Shown piece after piece: positions 3,219-64,000 of a stretch of DNA of 64,000 nucleotides. The notes beneath the pieces were generated by a model. It saw only the letters and a program-made list of their open reading frames with translations, was not told where the DNA came from and ran no database searches. The stretch's first letter is position 1, and each line of letters opens with the position of its first letter. The position numbers and the translations under genes are program-made. The stretch lies in NCBI GenBank assembly GCA_963810095.1, contig CAWEMM010000007.1, forward strand, positions 128,001 to 192,000, written 5' to 3'. The DNA is from an uncultured Chloroflexia bacterium (GTDB lineage Bacteria; Chloroflexota; Anaerolineae; CG2-30-64-16).

Positions 3219-4373
3219 CTAGATTGCGGCTTCGAGGATTTCGGTCAGCTCGGCGGGGGTGAGCACGATAGGGTTCGCCTTCGTGCTTGAAGCTGCGGCC
3301 GTCATCTGGACCAGCTCCGGCACGTGCTCGGCTGACACCCCGTACGCGGCCAGCGGGGGAATGTGCAGCTCGCGCGCCAGTTCCTGCACCCAGCGCACGG
3401 CGTCTGCAGCCCGGGCGGCAGCGCTGCCGGTCAGGATCGAGGCAACCTCGTCGTATTTCGCCAGGGCGGGGTGGCCGGGTTCGCGGTGGGCAAGGGCCCG
3501 GACGTTTATCGACATAACGGGAGGCAGCAGGGCCGCGCAGACTGCGCCGTGTGGTGCATGGAAGGCACCGCCGATGGGCCCGGCAAAGCCGTGCGCGGCG
3601 CCGAGCCCGGCGTTGGCCAGGCTTAAGCCGCCGAAGAGGCTTGCTAAGGACATGTCTTCGCGAGCGGCGACGTCGTCGCCGTGCTCGTACGCCCTGCGCA
3701 GCGAGCGTGCGACCCGCATCATGCCCTCACGACAGAGCGCGTCGGTCAGTGGGTTGGCGCGGCTCGACGTGAAGGGCTCGATCAGCTGCGTCAGCGCATC
3801 CAGGCCGGTGCTCGCGGTGACGGCGGGCGGCAGCGACAGCGTCAGCTCGGGATCGATCAGCGCGAGGCGCGGCAGCATCGTCGGGCTGCGCAGGCTCGCC
3901 TTGATCCCGTGCGCGGGCGACAGCAGCACGGCGTTGCGCGTTACTTCCGCGCCGGCGCCCGCGGTAGTGGGGATGGCGATGACGGGGAGCGAGGGCTGGG
4001 TAAGCAGCTTGCCGCGCCCGACGACCTCGAGATAGTCGAGGGGATCGCCGCCATTCGCGACCAACGCGGCCACTGCCTTCGCCGTATCCATGCTGCTTCC
4101 GCCGCCGAAGCCCACGACCAGGTCGCAGCCGGCGGCCGCGGCCGTGGCTGCCGCCGACCGGACCAGGTCCGTTGTCGGCTCGCCTGGCACCGCCGTAACG
4201 ACCGTCTCGAGCCCGGTCTCTGCCAGTATGTGGAGGGCACGCTCGGCCCGGACGGGGTCCGTCCCCACGGCAAGTAGGACCTTGCGCCCCATGCTCCGGG
4301 CCGCGGGACCCAGTTCCCGCAGGCAGCCGGGCCCTAAGACAATTCGCTGCGCGGTAGCAAACTCAAATCGCAT
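3219..4373 (-). CDS. Iron-containing alcohol dehydrogenase
   Basis: 'GFGGGSSMDTAK', 'IPTTAGAGAEVT', 'GLDALTQLIE', 'LGAAHG', 'PHG' motifs; start MRFEFAT at 4373. Confidence 0.93.
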   Translation of the reverse strand: MRFEFATAQRIVLGPGCLRELGPAARSMGRKVLLAVGTDPVRAERALHILAETGLETVVTAVPGEPTTDLVRSAAATAAAAGCDLVVGFGGGSSMDTAKAVAALVANGGDPLDYLEVVGRGKLLTQPSLPVIAIPTTAGAGAEVTRNAVLLSPAHGIKASLRSPTMLPRLALIDPELTLSLPPAVTASTGLDALTQLIEPFTSSRANPLTDALCREGMMRVARSLRRAYEHGDDVAAREDMSLASLFGGLSLANAGLGAAHGFAGPIGGAFHAPHGAVCAALLPPVMSINVRALAHREPGHPALAKYDEVASILTGSAAARAADAVRWVQELARELHIPPLAAYGVSAEHVPELVQMTAAASSTKANPIVLTPAELTEILEAAI

Positions 4374-47976: not shown

Positions 47977-50900
47977 ATGCGCGGGCAGAGAGGCGGCAGC
48001 AACGCTCTCGATCGGAGCGGTGGCCGGGGGAGCAGGCTCCCTGTGGCCATTGTCGGAGTAGGCGCGATCCTTCCTGATGCGCCATGTGCGCCGGCATACT
48101 GGCAGAATATCCGCAGCCGGCGGTACAGCATCACCGAGGTCCCCAGTGACCGGTGGCGGATCGAGGACTATTACGATCCCGATCCGAGTGTCCGGGATAA
48201 GACCTACAGCAAAATCGGCGCCTGGGTGCGCGGCTTTACATTCGACTGGAAGGGCTTTCGGATCCCGCCGAAAGTCGCTGCTGCCATGGATGAAGGGCAG
48301 CAGTGGGCGGTGACCATTGCCGCCGAGGCCCTTGCCGATTACGGGTATCCGGCTCGTTCGCTCGATACGGAGCGCACGGGAGTCATTCTCGGCGCCGCAA
48401 TGGGTGGCGAGCTTCATTACATCACCGGCCTGCGGGTTTTCTTCCCCGAGTACGCCAACGCGCTGGCCGCGGTGGATGAGTTCCGGTCGCTGGGCCACGA
48501 ACAGCGGGCCGCGCTCGTCCAAGGGCTGCGCGGCTGAGGTCGACCGCCGGATCCCCGGCATCAGCGAGGACAGCATGCCCGGCGAGCTGGCGAACGTCAT
48601 CGCCGGCCGGGTTGCCAACGTTTTCAATTTCCGCGGCCCCAATTTCATTGCCGACGCGGCGTGTGCATCGTCATTCGCCGCGCTCGAATCCGCGTGTGAT
48701 CTCCTGGCCCACGGCAAAGCCGACGCCGTCCTGTGCGGCGGCGTCGACCGCAACATGGGCCCCTCAACCTTCGTCAAGTTCTGCAAGATCGGCGCACTCA
48801 GCGCAACCGGCACCCGGCCTTTTGGAGAGGGTGCGGACGGTTTCGTCATGGGTGAGGGCGCGGCCGCGTTCCTGCTGCGCCGCCTGGACGACGCGATAGC
48901 CGACGGCGACAAGATCTACGCGGTCATCCGTGGCATCGGCGCGGCCAGCGACGGTAAGGGCAAGGGCATCACCGCGCCCAACCCACAGGGCCAAATCCTC
49001 GCGGTGCGCCGGGGCTGGGAAGACGCCGGGCTGGATCCGGCGACGTGTACGCTCGTCGAGGCCCACGGCACGAGCACGAAGGTGGGCGACGTCGTCGAGG
49101 TGAACAGCCTGAGCGAAGTCTTTGCCACGGCGCGGCGGGGCAGCATCGGGCTGGGCTCGGCCAAAAGCAACGTCGGCCATCTGAAAGCCGGCGCGGGCGC
49201 GGCGGGACTGCTGAAGGCGGTTTATGCCCTGCATCACAAGGAACTGCCGCCGACGCTCAACGCCGAGCGGCCGAACCCGGCCATCGATTTCTCCTGCACG
49301 CCGTTCCGCCTGGTCCACGAGCCGGCTGCGTGGGAGCCGGATGGTGGGCTGCCGCGGCGCTGCGGCGTCAGCGCGTACGGCTTTGGCGGCACGAACTTCC
49401 ACGTGGTGTTGGAGGAGTACCGGGCCGGGCGAACTCGAGCAGGCGTCGCGCAGGTGAGCAGCGAGCGTCCGGCGGAGGCCGGCAGGTAGTTTTGCCGGGC
49501 GAAGTCGAAGGAGCGGAACTGCTCACGGACCTCTTCGCATCCTTCGGCGCGCACCGCGAAACAGCGGGCGGGAAACGTCAGCGAAGCTGACGCCCGCTCA
49601 GATGCTGGCCGCTGCCACTCCGCGGCGTGCTGGCGCTTGGCGCGGATGACGCCCGCAGGGCTTACGGGGCAGTTGGACGAAGTCGCCGGCAAGGTGGCCG
49701 GCGGCTGGCTTCCGCCGCCGGCCGCGCCCGCCGCGGTCGTGCTGTCTGCAGCCGAGCGCCTGGTGGTCGACTTCAGCACGCCAGAGGAACTGATCGAACG
49801 GATCAAGGCCGCCCGACAGGCGCTGCAGAGCGAGCAGCCCGCGGCCTGGCGGGCGCTGGCAAACCGCGGCATCTTCCGCGGCCGGGGCGAACCGGCGGGG
49901 AAGGTGGCCTTCCTCTTCCCCGGCCAGGGCAGCCAGTACGCCAACATGGGCCGCACGTTCGCAGACCTGCCGCCGTTCGCCGCGACCTTCGCCGAAGCGG
50001 ACGCAGTGCTGACGCCCATACTCGGGAGGCCGCTTACCAGCTACATCTTCAGCGACCCTGACGATGCGGCCGCGCTGCGGGCGGCCGAAGAAGCGCTGCG
50101 CCAGACCGCCATCACGCAGCCAGCCGTCCTGACTCTCGACGTCGCGCTCTGCCGCCTGCTGGCCGCGTACGGTTTCGCGCCGGACATGGTGATGGGCCAC
50201 TCCCTGGGCGAGTATGCCGCGCTGGTCGTCGCGGGCGTGCTGCCCTTTGCCGATGCGCTCGAGGCTGCGGCGGCCAGGGGCGCAGAGATGACGCGGGTGA
50301 GCATGGAAGACAACGGCTGGATGGCCGCGGTGATGGCGCCCCTCGACGTGGTGCAGGACATTCTCGAAGGTGTCGAGGGATATGTCGTGCCGGCAAACAT
50401 CAACAGCCTGGGCCAATGCGTGATCGGCGGCGCAAGCCGGCCGGTCGAGGACGCGATTGCGGCGTTCAAGGCCAAGGGCTTCGAGGCGCAGCGCCTCCCC
50501 GTGAGCCACGCATTCCACACCGCGATCGTCGCCCCGGCCAGCAAGCCCTTGCGCCAGGTCCTCGACCGTCTACACGTGGGGCCCCCGGCGCTGCCGGTCA
50601 TTTCGAACGTCACAGGTGACTTCCATCCCCACGACGTAAAGGGCATTAAGGACTTGCTCGAGCAGCAGATCGCCTCGCCGGTCCAGTGGGTGTTGGGGCT
50701 GGATGCGCTGTACAGGCACGGGTGCCGCACCTACGTCGAGGTCGGACCCAAGCGTGCGCTCAAGGGCTTCGTGGACGAGGTGCTGGGGACGCGCGAAGGC
50801 GTGAGCAGTGTGTTGACCTGTCACCCGAAGACGGGCGAAGCGGCCACCTTCAACCAAGCGCTGTGCAGCCTGTGGGCAGGAGGGTACGGGCTTGGATCGG

Positions 50901-53900
50901 ATGAGCTTACTGGAACGATCAGGAACGGCAGCACGGTCCATCATTGGCGAAGCGGACGAAGAAACGGAAACACGCGTGAGGAGGATGGCGGCATGGTGGG
51001 CAGCAATGGATTGAATGGCCATCGGGATGTGCTATCGCGGGGCGGCAACGGAAGCTCCGCTGCAGTGGGTTCGCGCATTGCCACGGATGGGGTCGACGTG
51101 TTGGCGCAGGCGCTCGCCCTCGCGCTGGAGCGCATGAGTTCGGCGCCCGTTCAGGCCCCCGGCGCCCTCGCGGAACATGCGGCGCAAGCGCAGCCGGCGC
51201 CGGCTGCGCTTGCGCCGCACGCCGCGTTCCCCGCGCCCGCCCCGTGGGACCGGACGACCACACCCGCCGGCTCCGTCGTCATCAGCGGCACCGGCCTGGG
51301 CCTGCCCGGCACGGCCAAGCGCATCATGGACCCCGACAACGCGCTCCGCGTGCTGCGGGGCGAGCAGTTCATCGACCTCGTGCCCGAGCCCTTCCGCCGC
51401 GAGATGCTCGCCAAGCGGGTCACCCGGCTCGTCAAGTCTGCCGACGGCGGGGGCAGCTTCCAGGTGATCGCCGATCCCGACGAAGTGATCCGGCTCGCGG
51501 GCCGCGGCGGTCCGTTCGACCTGGCCGACGAATACGGCGTGCCACAGAAGCTAGTCGAGAGCCTCGACATCACGTCGCAGCTCGCCATGGCCGCCGGCCT
51601 CGACGCCCTGCGCGAGGCCGGCATTCCCCTGGTGCAGACGTGGCGGTCCACTTCGACCGGTAAACATCTGCCCGACCGGTGGCTGATCCCCGCCGCGATG
51701 CGCGATGAGACCGGCGTCATCTTCGCCAGCGTGTTCCCCGGCGGCGCGGCCCTTGCGGGGGAGCTTGAACGGTATTACCAGTGGGAGAAGCGACTGGATG
51801 CGGTCGAGGAGCTGGAGGACTTGCGCCGGTACGTCCGCGACTTCGATGCACAGGCCGAGATCTGCCGGCGCATCGCGCAAGCTGCGCGACGAGATCTCCG
51901 CGCAGCCGTACGAGTTCGACCGCCGCTTTATCTTCCGCATTCTCTCCATGGGCCACAGCCAGTTCGCCGAGTACATCGGCGCCCGCGGGCCCAACACCCA
52001 GGTTAATGCCGCCTGTGCGACGACCACTCAGGCCATCGCGCTGGCCGAGGACTGGATCCGTTCGGGTCGCTGCCGCCGGGTGCTTGTCATCGCGGGCGAC
52101 GACGTCACCGGCGACTCGCTGATGGAATGGGTGGGTGCGGGCTTCCTCGCATTGGGCGCCGCGGCCACCGACGACCGGGTAAGCGAAGCCGCGCTGCCCT
52201 TCGACCGTCGCCGCCACGGCACGATTCTGGGCATGGGCGCGTGCGCGCTGGTGGTAGAGAGCGAAGACGCCCTGCGCGAGCGCGGGATGCGCGGCATCGT
52301 CGAGTTACTGTCGACCGAGGCCGCGAACAGCGCATATCACGGGTCGCGGTTGGACGTGGACCACATCGGCGACGTCATGGAAGGGCTGGTCTCGACGGCG
52401 GAAAAGCGGTTCGGCGTCAACCGCTATGCGATCGCGCCCTACACCGTTTTTGTCTCCCACGAGACTTACACGCCGGCCCGAGGCGGCAGTGCAGCGGCCG
52501 AGGTCGTCGCGCTGCGCAAGACTTTCGGCGAGGCGGCCCGGCACATCGTCGTCTCGAACACCAAGGGTTTCACCGGCCATGCGATGGGCGTGGGGGTGGA
52601 AGATGTATTGGCCGTCAAGATGCTCGAATATGGCATCGTGCCCCCCGTCCCCAATTTCCAGGAGGTGGATCCCGATCTTGGCGTGCTGAACCTCAGCCGT
52701 GGAGGCAATTACCCGATTGCCTATGCGCTTCACCTGGCCGCCGGCTTCGGTTCGCAGGTCTCGATGACGCTGCTGCGCCGGGTGCCGGGCGGCCCCGACC
52801 GCGTTGAAGACCGCCTGCGCTACCAGCACTGGTTGGACGCGGTGAGCGGCTACGACCGGGCACAACTCGAAACCGTGCAGCGGGTGCTGCGCGTGCAGTC
52901 GGAGGACGGCCCGGGCCGCAGCCCGCAACCGTCGCAGTGGCGTCGTGGGCAGGGCCCTTGCGAACGGGCCGCAGCCCCCGGCGAAGGCATCCCCGGCGCA
53001 GTTCGTCCCGCGCCGCTGTGGAAAGTGGCCGACAAGCTGGGTGGCGAGGCGGGGAAGACGGTCACCACCGGGCGCGTGGAACACGAAGGCACTAAAGTGG
53101 CGGTGCGCGACGAGGCGAAGGAGATGGCACGCGAACACACGCAGGCGGTGGAGGTCACGGAGCGCGAAGGGGTGGCGAAGCGCAGCTTCGTCGACCCCAC
53201 CGGTGCCTCTTCCCGAGCCCTCTACGCCAGCGGTGTCCTCGGTGGCAGAACAAGACGCGGTCACGGCCAAGGTGCTGGAGATCGTGGCGGGCAAGACCGG
53301 TTATCCGCAGGACATGCTCGACCTCGACCTGGACCTGGAGGCCGACCTGGGCATCGACACGGTAAAGCAGGCCGAGACCTTTGCCGCCATTCGCCAGGCG
53401 TATGATATCCCGCCCCAGCAGGGGTTAAGCCTGCGCGATTACCCGACCCTCAAGTCGGTCGCCGGCTTCGTGCACAAGCTGCGGCCCGATTTGGCCACCG
53501 AGCGCACAGAGACTGCGACGAGAGGCGTCGAGCATTCTGCGCCCGCAGCAGTTGCTTCTCCTGCCCCTGCCGCCGCGCCGGTGTCCTCGTCAGTCGTCTC
53601 CGGGCCCTCGGTGTCCTCTGTGGGAATGGAGGACCCCGTCACGGCCAAGGTGCTGGAGATCGTGGCGGGCAAGACGGGCTATCCCCAGGACATGCTCGAC
53701 CTGGACCTGGACCTGGAGGCCGACCTGGGCATCGACACGGTGAAGCAGGCCGAGACGTTCGCCGCCATCCGCCAGGCGTATGATATCCCGCCCCAGCAGG
53801 GCCTGAGCCTGCGCGATTATCCAACCCTCAAGTCGGTTGTCGGCTTCGTGCACAAGCTGCGGCCGGACTTGGCCGAGGGGACTCCCGAAACGGAGGCCGC

Positions 53901-56486
53901 GCGCCCTTTTGAGGTGGCCGGGCCCGGCGAGGGGCCGCCCACAGCCCGGCCCGCGCTCCACACTATCGGAACGCTCGAGGATGCCGACCGCATCGCCCGC
54001 CGCGTTCCTCGGGCTGCCCTGCGTCCGGCGCTCGAGCTCTGCAAGCCGACCGGCGTGGTCCTCGAGCAAGGCAGCCGAGTGGTGGTCATGCTGGACGAAG
54101 GGTGTGTGGGCACGGAGCTGGCCCACCGTCTGGCCGAGGCGCGCGTCGAGCCACTGCTGCTGGAGCCCGGCATCGATACTGCGTCCTTAACCGAGCGGCT
54201 GCGCGAGTGGCAGGCACAAGGTTCGATCCAGGGCGTTTACTGGCTGCCCGCGCTCGACGTCGAGCCGTCGCTCGACAGCATGGACCTCTCGGCATGGCGC
54301 GAGCTGAACCGCCGCCGCGTCAAGAACCTCTATGCAGCCATGCGCGCGCTGTACGACGGGGTGGCTCGGCAAGGCACCTTCCTACTGAGCGCAACTCGCC
54401 TGGGCGGCCTGCACGGGTACGGCGAGGACGGGGCAACTGCGCCGCTCGGCGGTGCGGTCACCGGGTTCACAAAGGCCTACACGGCCGAACAGGGGCTGGC
54501 CGCGGCCGGCACCGGTGGAAGCGGTCCGCTGGTCAAGGCGGTCGACGTCGCCGCGGGCGTACCTGATGCCCAGGTGGCGCGCTGGCTCATTGGCGAGACC
54601 CTGGTCGATCCGGGGATCGTCGAGGTCGGCTACCGTGACGGCCTGCGCTTCACAGTCAACCTGGAGGAGGAGCCGGCGCGCGATGGAGGCGCAGGGCTTA
54701 GTGCTCGGTCCCGAGACAGTCGTGCTGGTCACGGGCGCGGCAGGCGGGATCACGAGCGCGATCGTGGCGGATCTCGCCGCGGCAAGCGGCGGAAGCTTCT
54801 ACCTGCTCGACCTCGCGCCGCTGCCTGCGCAGGACGACGAACATGTGCGACTGTTCTGCGCGGGCCGTGAGGCGCTCAAGCAGGCGCTGATCGAGGCTGC
54901 CCGCAGGGCCGGCGGCAAACCAAAGCCTGCCGAAATCGACCGCCAGATCGCGGCCGTGGAGCGCCAGGCGGCCGCGCTGGCGGCGGTGCAAGCCGTCGAG
55001 GCCGCGGGCGGAAAGGCCCACTACCGCAGCCTCGACTTCCGCGATCTCGCCGCGGTGGAGGCCGTCATCGACGAGGTGCGCGCCGCGCACGGCCGCATCG
55101 ACCTGCTGGTCCACGCCGCGGGCCTGTTGATCGATAAAACGCTGCCCGACAAGCAGCCCGAGCAGTTCGACCTGGTTTTCGACGTGAAGGCCGACGGCTT
55201 TTTCAACCTGTTGAAGGCAAGCCAGGCCCTTCCCATCGGCGCGACCGTCGCATTCAGCTCGGTTGCAGGGCGCTTCGGCAATAACGGGCAGGCGGACTAC
55301 TCCGCCGCCAATGACCTGCTCTGCAAACTGACCCACAACCTGTCACACTGGCGGCCGGCAACGCGGGGCATCGCGATCGACTGGACGGCATGGGGCGGCA
55401 TCGGCATGGCGGCCCGCGGCTCGGTGCCGCAAATCATGGAGGCACTCGGCGTCGACATGCTCCCACCCGAGGCAGGCGTGCCAACCGTCCGCCGCGAGCT
55501 GACCTACGGGGCCGCCCGTGGGCGAGGTGCTCATCGCGGGGCGGCTGGGCGCCTGGCTTGAGGAGCGCGATGCCAGCGGCGGCCTGGACCCGAACAGGGT
55601 GGATGCCGCGCTCGGCGCTCAGGCGCGACTGATGGCGGGCCGGCTGGTGGGGACACCCTCCCACGGTGGGGTCGACATCGAGACCACACTCGACCCCCGG
55701 GCACAAGCGTTCCTGTACGACCATGCGCCCGACCCCGACACGCCCTGGCTGCCCGGCGTGATGGCCATCGAGGCGCTGGCCGAGTCGGCGCAGCTGCTCG
55801 CGCCTGACCACCAGGTGGCGGCGGTCGAGGACGTCCGGATGCTTGGGGCCTTCAAGTTCTTCCGCATGGAGCCGCGCACGCTCCATGTCGCGGGAACGGT
55901 GAGGCCGGTGGGCGACGAACTCCATGGGTCCATGGTCCTGCGCTCCGTCACGCAGCCCCTTAGGCCCGAGATGCCGGCGCAGGTGAAGGAGCACTTCGTC
56001 GGAAAGGTCCGGCTCGCCAGGTCGGTCCGCGAGCCCGTTCGCATCTCGCCCGAGGCCGTCGTGCTCCCGGAGTCAGCGCTGACAATCCGGGCGGCCAGCA
56101 TCTATCCGCCCTTCTTTCACGGTCCGGCGTACCGTGTAGTCGACGGGGCCACGGTTGCAGGCGGCCGGGTCGTTGCCCGCATGACCGCGGGCTTACCGCC
56201 CCAGTCAGCGCCGGCCGGTGCGGCAACGCTCATGGCGCCCCGCCTGGTGGAACTTTGCTTCCAGGCCGCCGCGCTCTGGAGTCTGCAGACGGCGGGTGCG
56301 ATGGCCTTCCCTGCAAGCCTCGCCAGCCTGGTCGTCTATCGCCAGGAGCCTCAGGAACCCGCTGACCGGCTCTGGTGCACGCTGGAGACGGGTGACGGAT
56401 CGACTTTTGAGGGCCAGGTGGTGGACGAAGAGGGCAACGTGTACGTGGCGTTGAAGGGGTACCGAACGATCGCCAGGCCGGGCTGA
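47977..56486 (+). CDS. Stand-alone type I PKS/FAS, KS-AT-KS-ACP-ACP-KR-DH (broken by about 8 frameshifts)
   Basis: AAGGAG RBS. KS1 [21 protein letters not shown]; AT GQGSQY/GHSLG/HAFH; KS2 [23 protein letters not shown]; two ACPs [15 protein letters not shown]; KR TGAAGGI/FSSVAG/YSAAN; DH FLYDH....WLPGV. Consecutive overlapping ORFs span 47977-56486. Confidence 0.9.
53255..53870 (+). repeat. Duplicated ACP-coding units (~53255-53490 and ~53630-53870)
   Basis: Near-identical protein ([67 protein letters not shown]); differences are mostly synonymous. Confidence 0.9.
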
Positions 56487-59634: not shown

Positions 59635-62600
59635 CTAGCGCACGCTCACCGCGGAGGTGGCGCTGCCGCCCAGGCTGCTGCGCACCGTCACGTTCTGCGG
59701 GGCGGCCGGCAGCGGGAACGTGCCGCTGTACGTTGTGCCCTTAAGGGTCAGCGTGCCAATCAGCGCACCGGTTGCCGTGTCATACACCTTCAGAACGGCG
59801 TTGGACCCGGATGAGGTGGCGTCGACCAGCAGCGTGCCCTGCGACGTGCGATACAAGGCCCGCGTGATGCGGACGGTATCGCCGGCCGGCGCGCCGGTCG
59901 CTGTGCGGGTGGGCGATGGTGTCGCAGTCGGTGCGAGCGTCGGCGTGCGCGTCGGCGTGGCTGTGGCGGCAATCTGCGTCGGCGTCGGCGTACGCGTCGG
60001 CGTGAACGTCGGCGTCGCGGTGGCGCTCGCCTGCGTCGGAGTCGGCGTGAACGTCGGCGTCGCAGTGGCGCTTACCTGCGTTGGAGTCGGCGTGAACGTG
60101 GGCGTCGCAGTGGCACTCGCCTGCGTGGGCGTCGGCGTGAACGTGGGTGTTGCGGTTCCCGCCGACCCGAGGCTGAACGCCTCGTTGACGTCGGTGAACG
60201 CGGAACCGCCCGTGGGGCCGCCGCCCGCCACGTACACGACGCCGTTCACGGTTGCGGCCGAGGCGCCATGGCGCGGGGTCAGCATCGGCTGGAGCGTCCG
60301 CCACGTATTGGTGAGCGGGTCGTACTCTTCGTTTTGGCTGAAGGTTCCGCCCGAGGGCGTGCGCTCGCCGCCGATGAGCTGCGCCCGACCGTTGAGGTAG
60401 CCGGTCACCATCGTGCGCCGGCCCGTTGGCATCGGGCGCGCGCGGTCCACGTGTTGGTAGTCGGATCGAACATCTCGGCCGATGCGAGGGTGCCGTTGAC
60501 CTCTGTGCCGTCTGCGTTGCGCGTCCGCCCGCCAAACACGTACATCTTGCCGCCCAGAATTGCCGAACCCGGGTTGTCACGGCGCTCGATCATCGACGGC
60601 GCCGCGCTCCAGCTGTTAGTCGCCGGGTCATACACCTCGACGCTGTTCAGCGACGCGCCGTCGTTGCCCATCCCGCCGGCCACGTAGATCTTGCCGTTGA
60701 GCACTTGGGCCGTCGGGTCCGCCGCGCCCGGTCGCCATCGACGCCAGCATCGTCCACTGGTTCGTGGCCGGATCGTAGACCGCTGCGTTGGCGACTGCGC
60801 CGGTGAAGGCCGCGGTCGACCCGGCGAATACGTAGAGCTTGCCGTTGTACGATGTGACCGCAGGGTTCTCAACCGCCGGGTACGAGGTGGGCAGGTCGGG
60901 TCCCTGGCTCCACACGTTCGTGGCGGGATTGTAGATGTACAGCGTGCGCTGGTGAATGTCGCCCGTGATTTTGCCGGCAACCGAGTAGAGCTTGCCGCCA
61001 AGCTCGGCGCCGCCCGCATCGAGCAGGGAGACCGGCATCTTCTGCTTGACAGTCCAGGCGCCCGGCGCGCTGCTCGTCGGCGAGGGTGTCGGGGTGACGG
61101 TCGGCGTCGACTGTGCGAAGCCGGCCGGGATCAGCGCGGTGACGCGCTGCGCGCCCAGCTCGCCCACGAAGATCGTCCCGTCGGGCGCCTGCGCCAGGGG
61201 CAGCGGATCGCTCAGCCCGCCCGCCAACTGCGTCGCCTGCAAGACGGTCGTGCCGTCGGCCGAGAGCTTGATGCGGGTGATGTCGTCGCCAACCGAGTAG
61301 TTCGCGACGAGGACTTCACCCTTCAGGGTCCCGTCAAACGCGTCGGCCGTGTACTCAATCGTCCCATCGGACGAAGTGTTCATGCCCATCGTGTGAATCG
61401 GGTTGAGATAGTTGGCTGCGGGCGAAACACTCTGGTAGTGGCCGTCCTTGAAGATGCACTCGTTCCGATAGGGATTCGGATGGCCGAACGTCTTCCCCTG
61501 GATCAACCGGTGGAAGAGATCAGGCTGGATGCCCGGGTTGTCGCCGCCCTGGGTCCAACTGGTCGTATCGCCGTAGCCTTCGCACGGCGGCGTCGGGTTG
61601 GGCGGGAAGCTCCCGGTCACGCCCAGGCCATTGTCCGGACCGTAGGCGTTGCCGTTCGAGTGCCAGACGAAGTCGTACATGTTGCGCAGGCCCGAAGAAT
61701 ACACCTGTACGCTGCAAGGCGAAGGGCCGTAAGTGTTCTCAGGCGTCGCGCAGGTCCCGTCGAAGCCGGCTGCCTTCACGTCTGCCACCAGGAACGCGGC
61801 CGACAGCGGCTGTTCGGCGCGCGTGCCGAATTCCGTATTGGCGGTGTTGGGCGCGCCCGCGCCGGTGTTGCCGCCATTGGCGATGTACAGCTTGCCGTCG
61901 GGCCCAAAGTGGACCGCGTTGATCGCATGGTTGGCGATCGCGCGCGGCAGCCCGGTGATCACGTCCTGGCGCGTTGCGAAGTCCGCGCCCGAGAGCCTCG
62001 TCACCGTGCTCGAGTTCAGCTCGCCGTTATCGGTCGACGGGCTGGAATGGGAGACCCACAGGATGACGTTGCTGGGCGTCGATGCGGGATCCACGGTAAT
62101 GCCGAGCGTGAGTCGCGAGCCCAGCGTCGTGATCACCTGGTCGGCCGTGACCTGCTTGGCGCTGTCGAGCGTGAGTGCATGGATCTTGCCGAACATCTCC
62201 GTGACATACAGGCGGTTGTCCGGCCCCCATACCATGGCAGTTGGGTTCGGGATGGGGAAGCTGACGCGGTTGAAGTTGAGGTCCGACGTCGAGCCGGTCG
62301 TAGTTTCGGCGGTCACCGAGAAATCGTCGAATGCGTAGGTCAAGGCGGCCTGGCTGTACCGGTGCGAGGCGAAGACGCCACCGAAGCTGCGGGTGCCAAT
62401 CGCGGGATCGATCCCCGCGGCGTCGAAGCTGAAGAACTCCCCGGGCACGATGAACGTGCCCAGTTGGGTCAGGTCTGCGCCGTTGATGCTGAAGTATGCG
62501 GCGACCGTCCGGTCCGTCGGATTCGCGCGCAGACGCAGGTTGACGCGGGACGTTGCGACCGAAAGCGGCCCGGTCACGAACGAGCCCGTGCGGACGCCGC

Positions 62601-63864
62601 CTGATTCGAAGAGGTATTCGATGCGGGTCGTCGGGCCAGGCTCCGACAGGATTTCCAGCTTCAGGTAGTTGTCCTGGTCGTTGCCGAACCAGAGGCCGCC
62701 CTGCTCGTAGTTGCCCGTGCCGACGGGTGGGTTCACCACCGTGGTCTGGATGAGCGAGATCTGGTCGGGCGCATCCACGCCGACCGCGAGCGCGTTGTCC
62801 TGCGAGTTCGAGGTCCCAAACATCAGACCCTTGGTCGTGGTGACATTCAGCGTGCCCGTGCCGCTGGTGTCCACCCGCAGGTTCGCTGGGATATAGCCCG
62901 TCCCGTTGGTCGGCTGATCGATGTAGGTGAAGCCTGTGCCCACCCCGGCCCCATCGACGATTTTGCCCGCGTCTGTCGCGAAATCCAGCGTGTAGGGCGC
63001 GTGCACCAGGATTTCCGAGCAGGCCAGGGGCGAGCAAGTCGTGGCTGCAGCAACGTCAAGCGTCACGGTCGTCGTCGCTGCCGCGACCCCGTCGCCCGCG
63101 GCGGTCACGGTCGCAGTGTAAGCGCCCGGTTGAAGCCCGGAGGCGTCGACATTCAGCGTTCGTACTGCCGGCGTGCTTCCCTTGCGCCCGTTACCGAGCG
63201 GCTGGGGCGCCTCGAATGTCAGCCACGGGGCGCTGCTCGATAACTGGAAGTTCGCGTCCTTGCCATCGCTTGCGAAAATGCGCAGGGTCTTTTCATCACG
63301 CCCGCCCCGGGTCACATTGAAGTGCAGGCGCTCGGGGCCGAAGAGCAGCGCCCGGGGACCGTTGTGCGCCTGGAACTGCACGCTCTCCACTGCCGTCGAA
63401 CCATCGTTCAGGTCGATGGCGGCAATAAGTGTGTGCGGGCCGTTCGCCAGGGCGGCCGTGTCGAAGCCGCGGGGCTGCGCGCTCGCGTCCAGCCCGCCCA
63501 GGTCAAACGGCGGCTTATCCGCGACCGCGTCCGGCGTGAGCGCGGCAAGCGTGCCTTCCAGCGAGTCTTGTGCCGGGTCAATAAAATATCGCACGCGTGC
63601 GACCCCGGCGGGCGGGGTGACGAAGATGTAGGCCCTGCCCGAGAGGACGGCGACCTCGTCGAGTGCGACATGCCCGCCCCGGTTGGCCGAGCGGCTGATG
63701 TGGAGGCGGTAGTCGGCATGGCCGGCCTGAGCAGCCGCTGCCGCGGGCTTGGATGCTGCGCTTGGTGCGGCCGCACCCGAACTCGCCGCGGGGAACGCCA
63801 CCGCTGCGATTAGCAGGAGCGCAAGCAGCGCGAGGTAAGGACGAAGTTTGCTCGTTCGAGCCAT
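59635..63864 (-). CDS. Large secreted multidomain protein: BACON-like, ConA-like, glucose/sorbosone-dehydrogenase propeller, Kelch repeats, PT linker (frameshifts near 60720 and 60440)
   Basis: Signal peptide; 'APWL' BACON-like; 'WGPDNRLYV', 'FGPDGKLY', 'GLRNMYD' GSDH-like; Kelch 'GKLYVFAG..YDPATNQW'; C-terminal beta-domain. Confidence 0.82.
59990..60160 (-). repeat. 45-bp coding tandem repeat (ATATPTFTPTPTQAS, about 3.5 copies)
   Basis: Seen in the translation of ORF 59635..60450. Confidence 0.8.
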
Positions 63865-64000
63865 GTGAACCCCTTTGCTACGGGAATTGAGTCTGCGTGG
63901 CAACAACTACTGAAAGCCTGCCTGGCGCGCTATATTATGATTGCTATGTCTGTCTCGGTCATCGCCCCAATGACGCACGTTGGTGTAAGGCTTTTGTCTG

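What the first reader, a model, noticed from the sequence alone, without database searches (positions are those of the whole stretch)
53341..53760. Both PKS ACP domains carry threonine, not serine, at the phosphopantetheine site (GIDT)
Seen: both ACPs read [15 protein letters not shown], with ACG codons at 53359-53361 and 53737-53739. Neighbouring codons differ synonymously between the copies (gta vs gtg), so the Thr is not a one-off base-calling error. Established: carrier proteins are phosphopantetheinylated on an essentially invariant Ser (PfaA-type [18 protein letters not shown]). These are the only ACPs in an enzyme whose KS, AT, KR and DH sites look intact. Inference: either Thr-linked phosphopantetheinylation by an unusual PPTase, a different prosthetic chemistry, or structural ACPs with a carrier supplied in trans.
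Basis: partly seen in the sequence, partly recalled or inferred. Interest (0 to 1): 0.85.

Follow-up and report, generated by a model that had tools for sequence, protein, structure and literature searches.

The report
Threonine carrier sites in lipid synthase
A widespread but uncharacterised family of bacterial lipid-building megaenzymes carries threonine where all other known carrier domains have the serine that holds the phosphopantetheine arm, which suggests an undescribed threonine-linked version of this modification.

Summary
Both carrier (ACP) domains of the window's PKS-like gene read [11 protein letters not shown], with ACG (Thr) at 53359-61 and 53737-39. That Thr aligns with the phosphopantetheine Ser of solved ACPs and sits at the start of helix II in a confident ACP-fold model.

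It is neither an error nor lineage decay. The gene belongs to the "Type R secondary lipid synthase" family (Shulse & Allen 2011; KS-AT-KS'-ACPn-KR-DH, product unknown).
- In 120 homologues found with the ACP region, 597 of 598 carrier motifs have Thr.
- In 150 representatives found with the KS' domain alone, there are 337 Thr, 10 Ser and no other residue.
- The Ser cases are 4-5 independent switches nested in Thr clades.

An Sfp-type PPTase gene lies next to the synthase in relatives and next to the paralogue on another contig of this genome. All 8 relatives' genomes with the synthase have it. All other carriers in this genome use Ser.

Best reading (about 0.65): Thr is the phosphopantetheine attachment site, served by the cluster's own PPTase. 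This is unproven. I found no report of it in print.

At 3 of the 5 junctions, short-read contigs from other runs lack the extra base, so assembly indels are likely.

The parts
47977..56486 (+). Type R PfaA-like megasynthase gene (KS-AT-KS'-ACP-ACP-KR-DH), read across at least 5 frame junctions in this assembly.
   Evidence: ORFs and frames. Pfam domains on the pieces. tblastn of intact homologues L013 (3028 aa) and L021 (2104 aa, cut by its contig end) against the window.
48043..49435 (+). KS1 ketosynthase domain. The frame junction at about 48531 lies inside it.
   Evidence: Pfam ketoacyl-synt, Ketoacyl-synt_C and KAsynt_C_assoc. tblastn. A contig of run X2 leaves out 1 nt at 48531.
49910..50761 (+). 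Acyltransferase (malonyl-type AT) domain.
   Evidence: Pfam Acyl_transf_1, E 2.8e-40, residues 92-375 of ORF 49637-52006.
51269..52919 (+). KS', the second ketosynthase-like domain (called 'CLF' in the 2011 catalogue). The frame junction at about 51878 lies inside it.
   Evidence: Match to the L013 KS' query at G000:C7:179269-180919. Pfam ketoacyl-synt and ACP_syn_III. Cys/His/His are conserved in 121/122, 121/122 and 122/122 family rows. Contigs of X1 and X3 leave out 1 nt at 51877/8.
53248..53505 (+). ACP domain 1. The Thr codon ACG at 53359-53361 stands in place of the phosphopantetheine Ser.
   Evidence: AF2 model with pLDDT 84.8, helix II starting at this Thr. Foldseek best hits are AcpP chains.
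53626..53883 (+). ACP domain 2. The Thr codon ACG is at 53737-53739.
   Evidence: Contig X3 record 22 covers it unchanged.
54719..55396 (+). Ketoreductase (KR) domain.
   Evidence: Pfam KR, E 2.5e-25, residues 90-315 of ORF 54452-55561.
55641..56468 (+). PKS-type dehydratase (DH) domain. The frame junction at about 55520 lies just upstream.
   Evidence: Pfam PS-DH and PKS_DH_N on ORF 55518-56486. A contig of X4 leaves out 1 nt at 55520.

Best explanation
The two domains are working acyl carrier domains of a Type R secondary-lipid megasynthase. In this family the 4'-phosphopantetheine arm is most likely attached to the hydroxyl of a conserved Thr instead of the usual Ser. The likely enzyme is the Sfp-type PPTase encoded in the family's gene cluster. 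In this genome that PPTase lies beside the paralogous synthase on another contig and would act in trans on the window's copy.

Shown: the Thr is real, it sits at the Ser position of an ACP fold, it is conserved family-wide, and it is exchangeable only with Ser. A dedicated PPTase is adjacent to, fused with, or co-occurring with the synthase.

Inferred: that the Thr is actually modified, and that the cluster PPTase rather than AcpS or the NRPS-linked PPTase does it.

Speculation on why Thr: insulation from other PPTases or phosphodiesterases, or a linkage more resistant to beta-elimination.
For: (1) Position and fold. The Thr aligns with the Ser of solved ACPs. It is the first residue of helix II in a model of pLDDT 84.8. 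That model's best structural matches are E. coli AcpP chains, TM-score by target 0.84-0.89.

(2) Conservation. All 33 of 33 motifs in relatives' loci have Thr, and 597 of 598 in 120 homologues. With the family defined independently by the KS' domain, 125 of 150 representatives have a recognisable motif. Of these, 120 are Thr-only, 4 Ser-only and 1 is Ser-Thr-Ser. That gives 337 Thr, 10 Ser and 0 other, although the pattern allowed any residue.

(3) On a KS' tree of 122 rows, the Ser-bearing rows are 4-5 separate switches. For each of the 4 the output printed (the fifth, P0262, was not shown), the row is nested in a well-supported small clade of Thr rows. Ser and Thr are therefore functionally interchangeable here, and a hydroxyl is required.

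(4) The flanking PPTase-recognition motif (DLG-x-D, helix II) and the whole domain are strongly conserved, with 37 invariant columns of 86 in 19 domains. The window's two copies differ by 15 synonymous codon changes and 1 internal non-synonymous one.

(5) An Sfp-type PPTase gene follows the synthase in L014, L015 and the own-genome paralogue L016. In P0055 it is fused to the synthase. The 2011 catalogue lists the downstream PPTase as part of the cluster (PMC3098273, passages).

(6) Among 41 related genomes, all 8 with evidence of the synthase have a strong orthologue of this PPTase, against 1 of the other 33.

(7) The cluster holds no other carrier. In this genome PP-binding matches occur only in these synthases, in one NRPS region and in AcpP, and all of those others have Ser.

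(8) A complex model of the own-genome cluster PPTase with CoA, Mg and ACP1 scored 0.64 against a best control of 0.00. That mark was reached by 58 of 80 solved complexes and 2 of 110 mismatched pairs. The runs agree in at least 94% of contacts, and the partner pLDDT is at least 80. The Thr touches the Glu of the W-x-x-K-E motif, and the preceding Asp touches the second acidic residue of G-A-D-I-E. PPTase-carrier complexes are solved, so this pass may reflect likeness only.
Against: - There is no direct evidence of modification.
- In E. coli, ACP S36T 'cannot be post-translationally modified by 4'-PP' and is non-functional (PMC3340395, passages). Thr is therefore not a general PPTase substrate.
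- The cluster PPTase has the ordinary Sfp catalytic motifs and no demonstrated adaptation.
- One relative (G016, 97% complete) has the PPTase orthologue but no synthase was found, either genome-wide with two queries or within 17 kb upstream.
- The window's own copy has no PPTase or acyl-CoA dehydrogenase beside it and is frame-broken as assembled.
- The complex model may pass from memory of solved Sfp-PCP and AcpS-ACP structures.
- The homologue set was found with the ACP region itself, so only one search is an unbiased count.
Confidence: 0.65

Rival explanations
1. The Thr hydroxyl carries a different chemistry, such as direct O-acyl tethering, phosphorylation or another prosthetic group, rather than 4'-phosphopantetheine.
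For: Only a hydroxyl is strictly conserved: 347 of 347 motifs are Thr or Ser. E. coli AcpS does not modify ACP S36T (PMC3340395). The family's product and mechanism are unknown (PMC3098273; no later work found).
Against: The adjacent, fused or co-occurring enzyme is a PPTase with intact CoA/Mg catalytic motifs. The rest of the PPTase-recognition surface of the ACP is conserved. Family members with Ser at the same place look like ordinary carriers. Both KS domains keep the Cys-His-His triad expected for thioester chemistry.
Confidence: 0.13
2. The ACP domains stay apo and act as structural or docking modules. The growing chain would be carried by a separate holo-ACP, or as CoA thioesters, which would fit the acyl-CoA-dehydrogenase partner.
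For: Thr normally blocks modification. The cluster's redox partner belongs to the acyl-CoA dehydrogenase family. The Pfam PP-binding scores of 30-39 bits are lower than those of the genome's other carriers, at 50-70 bits.
Against: No stand-alone ACP gene lies in the clusters or near the window gene. A purely structural site should tolerate Ala, Gly or Asn, but only Thr and Ser occur. Tandem copy number varies from 2 to 8, as in PUFA synthases, where the number of ACPs scales output (PMC5067506, abstract seen in the listing). This model leaves the dedicated PPTase unexplained.
Confidence: 0.12
3. The Thr is an artefact or a sign of decay: a base-calling error, or a dead paralogue whose carrier sites have drifted.
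For: The window gene is split over at least 5 frames and has one in-frame stop. The assembly is 88.5% complete in 16 contigs, and its AcpS gene is also split.
Against: Thr is found in intact homologues of 2093-3175 aa, in hundreds of database proteins across phyla and in a contig from another run. At 3 of the 5 frame junctions, near-identical contigs (97.6-99.5% alike) from other runs lack exactly one base, at 48531, 51877/8 and 55520. A further one-base difference lies at 49651. The frame breaks are therefore most likely assembly insertions. The ACP copies show purifying selection.
Confidence: 0.03

Closest known systems
Type R secondary lipid synthase gene cluster (Shulse & Allen 2011, PLoS One 6:e20146, PMC3098273; Roseiflexus castenholzii, Ca. 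Koribacter versatilis, Ca. Solibacter usitatus, Elusimicrobium minutum)
   Same: One pfaA homologue with KS-MAT-'CLF'-ACP(n)-KR and a PPTase gene in the cluster, spread over Chloroflexi and Acidobacteria, with unknown product (passages read). The window gene has this order plus a DH. Named homologues include Roseiflexus sp. and Korobacteraceae.
   Different: The paper does not contain the word 'threonine' (0 occurrences) and treats the ACPs as ordinary. It calls the second KS a CLF, although the Cys-His-His triad is conserved. The window copy has 2 ACPs rather than 3-6, and no PPTase beside it. The PPTase lies by the paralogue on contig C9.
PfaA of PUFA synthases (NCBIfam TIGR02813)
   Same: KS-AT, tandem ACPs, KR and a DH-like tail. 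It is the best NCBIfam match of the intact homologue L013.
   Different: The score of 958.4 is below the cut-off of 1010.1. There is an extra KS' between AT and the ACPs. No PfaB/C/D partners are present, and an acyl-CoA-dehydrogenase-family gene stands in their place. The ACP motif has Thr, whereas PfaA ACPs have Ser. The PfaA motif is recalled and comes from no call.
Canonical carrier proteins (Pfam PF00550; E. coli AcpP, PigH, CurA ACPs) primed by Sfp-type PPTases
   Same: The four-helix ACP fold, the D-L-G-x-D motif before helix II, and the predicted docking of helix II on the PPTase active site.
   Different: The modified residue position holds Thr. In E. coli AcpP, the S36T change abolishes modification (PMC3340395).

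Membership tests
Type R secondary lipid synthase cluster (Shulse & Allen 2011) | A single pfaA homologue with domain order KS-MAT-CLF(KS')-ACPn-KR | tested here: met
   Pfam on the window's pieces. Colinear tblastn with the intact homologues L013 and L021. The intact homologue L013 shows KS, AT, KS', 3 PP-binding, KR and DH.
Type R secondary lipid synthase cluster (Shulse & Allen 2011) | PPTase gene directly downstream of the synthase | tested here: not met
   There is no PF01648 match inside the window. The next gene downstream is a histidine kinase on the minus strand. The feature is met for the paralogous cluster of the same genome (G000:C9; L016 13684-14397) and for L014 and L015.
Type R secondary lipid synthase cluster (Shulse & Allen 2011) | Close sequence relationship to the named Type R members (Roseiflexus, Koribacter lineage) | tested here: met
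   The homologue list includes proteins named Roseiflexus sp. and Korobacteraceae with the same Pfam set and the same Thr motif. The search query was the family-level relative L013, not the frame-broken window gene.
PfaA (NCBIfam TIGR02813) | Whole-protein score over the curated cut-off | tested here: not met
   958.4 bits against a cut-off of 1010.1 for the intact homologue L013. The window gene itself could not be scored whole because of its frame breaks.
Acyl/peptidyl carrier domain (Pfam PF00550) | Profile match over the cut-off, and the ACP fold | tested here: met
   30.9 and 30.5 bits against a cut-off of 20.8. AF2 model of pLDDT 84.8. Foldseek to AcpP, TM-score by target 0.84-0.89.
Acyl/peptidyl carrier domain (Pfam PF00550) | Ser at the start of helix II as the phosphopantetheine attachment site | tested here: not met
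   Thr (ACG) in both copies. It aligns to the Ser of solved ACPs.
Acyl/peptidyl carrier domain (Pfam PF00550) | Covalent 4'-phosphopantetheine on that residue | not testable with these tools
   This needs mass spectrometry. There is only indirect support.
Sfp-type PPTase (the cluster's PPTase, outside the window) | PF01648 match and the Sfp catalytic motifs (His motif, G-x-D-x-E, W-x-x-K-E-x-x-x-K) | tested here: met
   PF01648 E 1.4e-20 and 1.3e-17. Alignment to Sfp 1qr0/4mrt, E 5e-8, with the motifs aligned. The motifs are present in 9 cluster PPTases.

The most novel reading that the evidence does not exclude
Threonine-O-4'-phosphopantetheine is a natural, family-wide post-translational modification. 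In thousands of Type R lipid synthases across Chloroflexota, Acidobacteriota and other phyla, the carrier arm hangs on Thr. A dedicated clade of Sfp-type PPTases has evolved to prime a secondary alcohol. The result is a carrier system insulated from the cell's other PPTases and phosphodiesterases, or chemically tougher.
Probability: 0.55. Interest if true: 0.85.

Novelty: new variant of a known kind. Interest (0 to 1): 0.72.

Why it matters
The phosphopantetheine Ser is treated as invariant in fatty-acid, polyketide and non-ribosomal peptide enzymology. It is used by annotation tools to call carrier domains 'active'.

A large, phylum-spanning family that uses Thr would have several consequences:
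- It would add a new acceptor residue for a universal modification.
- It would define a PPTase specificity useful as an orthogonal protein-labelling pair.
- It would warn that S-to-T 'dead' controls and motif-based 'inactive ACP' calls are not universally safe.
- It might explain why Type R synthases, catalogued in 2011, still have no product. Heterologous expression with Sfp or AcpS alone might leave them apo.

The family has cultured hosts (Roseiflexus, Koribacter, Solibacter, Elusimicrobium), so the question is directly testable.

Tried and rejected
- Literature. Six full-text searches for a natural Thr carrier site or Thr-linked phosphopantetheine found nothing relevant. The hits opened concerned other matters. 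Searches for later work on Type R found only the 2011 catalogue. Subscription journals and supplementary files were not searchable, so 'not in print' holds only for this library.
- Expression. The look-up of sequencing runs listed no RNA holder. This says nothing about expression.
- Frame junctions. The junctions at 53039-53206 and 54563-54699 were not resolved by the laid contigs. The bin 54501-54787 had no cover in any of the 4 runs. The KS-AT linker (49430-49650, with the in-frame stop at 49487-9) aligns poorly even to the same-genus orthologue, and only one indel there (49651) was seen in a contig. A possible sixth junction near 56228 rests on a 37-bit match and is not claimed.
- Pseudogene reading. 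I judged it less likely than assembly error, as set out under the rival explanations.
- PPTase adaptation. I looked for an active-site adaptation in the cluster PPTase and found only one candidate, an Ala before the catalytic Asp in 8 of 9 sequences. One Thr-family PPTase (L031) has Val there, so it cannot be essential.
- Taxonomy. The window's organism is known only through coded relatives and through the names on homologues of a family-level relative (Caldilineaceae, Anaerolineae).
- Earlier scan notes. By place and by words they returned nothing. By sequence they returned two notes on the same family.
Full report
**Observation**

The window reads ACG (Thr) at 53359-53361 and 53737-53739. 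Both lie inside two near-identical stretches...[22 protein letters not shown]..., in one frame (ORF 52945-54870). Pfam PP-binding matches both stretches. In a whole-genome scan they score 30.9 and 30.5 bits against a cut-off of 20.8.

phmmer against all PDB chains aligns the Thr with the Ser of the D-S motif in both ACPs of PigH (5y08), in CurA ACP (2liu) and in a type II ACP (2cnr/2koo).

An AlphaFold2 model of ACP1, built on an alignment of 19 family domains, has mean pLDDT 84.8, and helix II starts exactly at the Thr. Its best Foldseek matches in the PDB are E. coli AcpP chains, with TM-score by target 0.84-0.89. So the Thr occupies the structural position of the phosphopantetheine Ser.

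The two copies share 227 of 258 bases. They differ by 15 synonymous and 7 non-synonymous codons, of which only one non-synonymous change is internal to the domain. Both copies are therefore maintained by selection. A short-read contig from another public run covers the second ACG without change.

**What the gene is**

The surrounding gene (about 47977-56486, + strand) encodes KS, AT, a second ketosynthase-like domain (KS'), two ACPs, KR and a PKS-type DH.

Intact homologues in related genomes are single ORFs of 3028 aa (L013, 3 ACPs), 3175 aa (L014, 6 ACPs) and 2093 aa (L015, 2 ACPs, with KS-AT on a separate upstream ORF). The best NCBIfam model is PfaA (TIGR02813), but the score of 958 bits is below the cut-off of 1010.

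The layout matches the 'Type R' secondary lipid synthase cluster of Shulse & Allen 2011 (PMC3098273; passages read). That cluster is one pfaA homologue, KS-MAT-CLF-ACP(3-6)-KR, followed by a PPTase gene. It occurs in Roseiflexus, Ca. Koribacter, Ca. Solibacter and Elusimicrobium, and its product is unknown. Database homologues carry source names such as Roseiflexus sp., Chloroploca, Oscillochloris fontis, Viridilinea, Kouleothrix, Caldilineaceae, Korobacteraceae, Terriglobales and a Bacteroidia MAG.

Two earlier notes of this scan, on other genomes, reached the same family assignment.

**The Thr is a family trait, not decay**

- In 12 loci from relatives, all 33 carrier motifs have Thr, encoded by ACG or ACC. 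These are 24 distinct sites, since two pairs of loci overlap and one locus is the window itself.
- In the best 120 of 4670 database homologues, 597 of 598 motifs have Thr. Those homologues were found with the ACP region of L013, so that set is biased towards the motif. The single Ser is the first of six ACPs in P0055, a 3709-aa protein that also has a fused PPTase domain.
- To avoid defining the group by the feature being counted, I searched 1.84 billion representatives with the KS' domain alone. That gave 8390 hits at E<=1e-3 and 682 at E<=1e-30.
- Among the best 150 of those, 125 have a recognisable carrier motif. Of these, 120 are Thr-only, 4 are Ser-only and 1 reads Ser-Thr-Ser. The motif totals are 337 Thr, 10 Ser and no other residue, although the pattern allowed any.
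- On a FastTree of the KS' domain, the Ser state needs 4-5 independent changes. The tree has 122 rows; 4 representatives were dropped because their KS' match covered fewer than 400 query residues. Of the five Ser-bearing rows, the output printed four, and each sits inside a strongly supported small clade of Thr rows; the fifth, P0262, was not shown.

Thr is thus the prevailing state of the family. Ser appears sporadically, and nothing without a hydroxyl is tolerated.

In the window's own genome, every other carrier domain has Ser: 16 PCP/ACP domains of an NRPS region on contig C11, and AcpP.

**The PPTase**

In relatives the conserved neighbourhood is an acyl-CoA-dehydrogenase-family gene, then the synthase, then an Sfp-type PPTase, then a carboxyltransferase.

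The window's copy lacks these neighbours. Upstream are an exonuclease III-like ORF and a NUDIX-like ORF, both labelled by eye and not scanned. Downstream is a histidine kinase.

The same genome has a second, paralogous synthase on contig C9, with the acyl-CoA dehydrogenase upstream and the PPTase directly downstream (L016). Two paralogues per genome, only one of them with the PPTase beside it, is also seen in G012. G001 and G007 likewise carry two copies, on separate contigs.

The genome encodes two further PPTases. One is an AcpS, split by a frame break. The other is an Sfp-type enzyme next to the NRPS region.

Among 41 related genomes, a strong orthologue of the cluster PPTase (E<=1e-20) occurs in 9. 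Eight of these are exactly the genomes with evidence of the synthase. In G004 the contig starts inside the ACP region. In G026 the ACP region is collapsed to 188 nt between KS' and KR. The ninth, G016, has the orthologue but no synthase was found.

The PPTase has the ordinary Sfp motifs, aligned to Sfp 1qr0/4mrt. The only family-typical difference I saw is an Ala before the catalytic Asp, G-A-D-[I/V]-E, in 8 of 9 sequences.

A complex model of the C9 PPTase with CoA, Mg and ACP1 passed. It scored 0.64 against a best control of 0.00, a mark reached by 58 of 80 solved complexes and 2 of 110 mismatched pairs. The runs agree in at least 94% of contacts, and the partner pLDDT is at least 80. It places the Thr against the Glu of W-S-A-K-E and the preceding Asp against the G-A-D-I-E acidic residue. 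Because PPTase-carrier complexes are solved, this shows likeness to the canonical docking mode, not proof of binding.

**Most likely mechanism**

The ACPs are working carriers whose phosphopantetheine arm is attached to Thr by the cluster PPTase. Both KS domains keep Cys-His-His. For KS', the counts are 121/122, 121/122 and 122/122. The enzyme therefore looks like a thioester-based iterative synthase that needs a thiol arm.

The steps shown are position, fold, conservation, Ser/Thr exchangeability and PPTase linkage. The step inferred is the modification itself.

The main counter-evidence is that E. coli ACP S36T cannot be modified and is non-functional (PMC3340395, passages), and that no adaptation of the PPTase is demonstrated.

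The rivals are a different chemistry on the hydroxyl, apo 'structural' ACPs with chains carried in trans or as CoA esters, and artefact or decay. The field for rival explanations weighs each of them. The PPTase linkage and the strict hydroxyl requirement argue against the first two. The family-wide data argue against the third.

**State of the gene in this assembly**

As assembled, the gene is not an intact ORF. Colinear matches to intact homologues switch frame at about 48531, about 51878, 53039-53206, 54563-54699 and about 55520. There is also an in-frame stop at 49487-9.

I laid contigs of four public metagenome runs (two studies) on the gene. Near-identical pieces (97.6-99.5% alike) leave out exactly one base at 48531 (X2), 51877/8 (X1, X3) and 55520 (X4). 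That matches three of the five junctions. Another piece leaves out one base at 49651. The other two junctions were not covered or not resolved.

The same assembly also breaks its AcpS gene and the C9 paralogue, and it is 88.5% complete in 16 contigs. I therefore read the frame breaks as insertion errors of the assembly (about 0.8) rather than true pseudogenisation (about 0.2). Either way the Thr finding stands on the family data.

**Novelty**

The family is catalogued, but its 2011 description does not mention threonine (0 occurrences). My full-text searches found no report of a natural Thr carrier site or of Thr-linked phosphopantetheine, and no later characterisation of Type R. Subscription journals and supplements were not searched.

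I rate this a new variant of a known kind.

Noticed in passing
window 47977-56486 (junctions at about 48531, 49487-49651, about 51878, 53039-53206, 54563-54699, about 55520): The synthase gene is split over at least 5 frames and has one in-frame stop. At 3 of the 5 junctions, contigs of other runs lack exactly one base, and a fourth one-base difference lies at 49651. The assembly probably carries insertion errors.
   Followed up: yes
window 51269-52919; family alignment of 122 KS' domains: The domain called 'CLF' in the 2011 catalogue keeps the full Cys-His-His ketosynthase triad (121/122, 121/122, 122/122). It is probably a second active KS, not a chain-length factor.
   Followed up: partly
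L016 13684-14397 (G000:C9), L014 16029-16889, L015 13776-14573, L025-L031: 8 of 9 cluster PPTases read G-A-D-[I/V]-E, with Ala before the catalytic Asp. The genome's NRPS-linked PPTase has Val there and Sfp has Ile. This could make room for the Thr methyl. L031 has Val, so it is not essential.
   Followed up: partly
G000:C9 about 244.4-254.4 kb (L016 2776-14397): The genome holds a second, paralogous Type R cluster: acyl-CoA dehydrogenase, a synthase with 3 Thr-ACPs that is also frame-broken twice, and a PPTase. G001, G007 and G012 also carry two synthase copies each.
   Followed up: partly
P0055 (3709 aa) and P0235 (2353 aa): These are natural mixed proteins. P0055 has Ser in the first ACP, Thr in the next five, and a C-terminal fused PPTase domain. 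P0235 reads Ser-Thr-Ser. They are good substrates for a side-by-side test of Ser and Thr priming.
   Followed up: partly
L035 (G026:C71) 3684-3872: In this relative only 188 nt separate the KS' and KR matches, and no carrier motif is present. The tandem ACP region is either collapsed by short-read assembly or deleted.
   Followed up: no
L029/L034 (G016:C4:45462-46154): A strong orthologue of the cluster PPTase (47% identity) lies in a 97%-complete genome in which no Type R synthase was found, either genome-wide or within 17 kb upstream.
   Followed up: partly
G000:C7:16331-16652 (outside the window): The AcpS-type PPTase match is split into two adjacent frames. This is another likely indel error, in an essential gene.
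   Followed up: no
G000:C11 about 78-144 kb (outside the window): A large NRPS/PKS region with 17 PP-binding matches has an Sfp-type PPTase at its end. Every carrier site that could be read is a canonical Ser motif (GGHSL, GGDSI, GLDSI).
   Followed up: no
window 60628-63906 (-): A 1092-aa ORF for a secreted-looking protein has a last stretch of about 40 residues that is Arg/Gly-rich and reads like an out-of-frame tail. It may be another indel. This was not checked.
   Followed up: no
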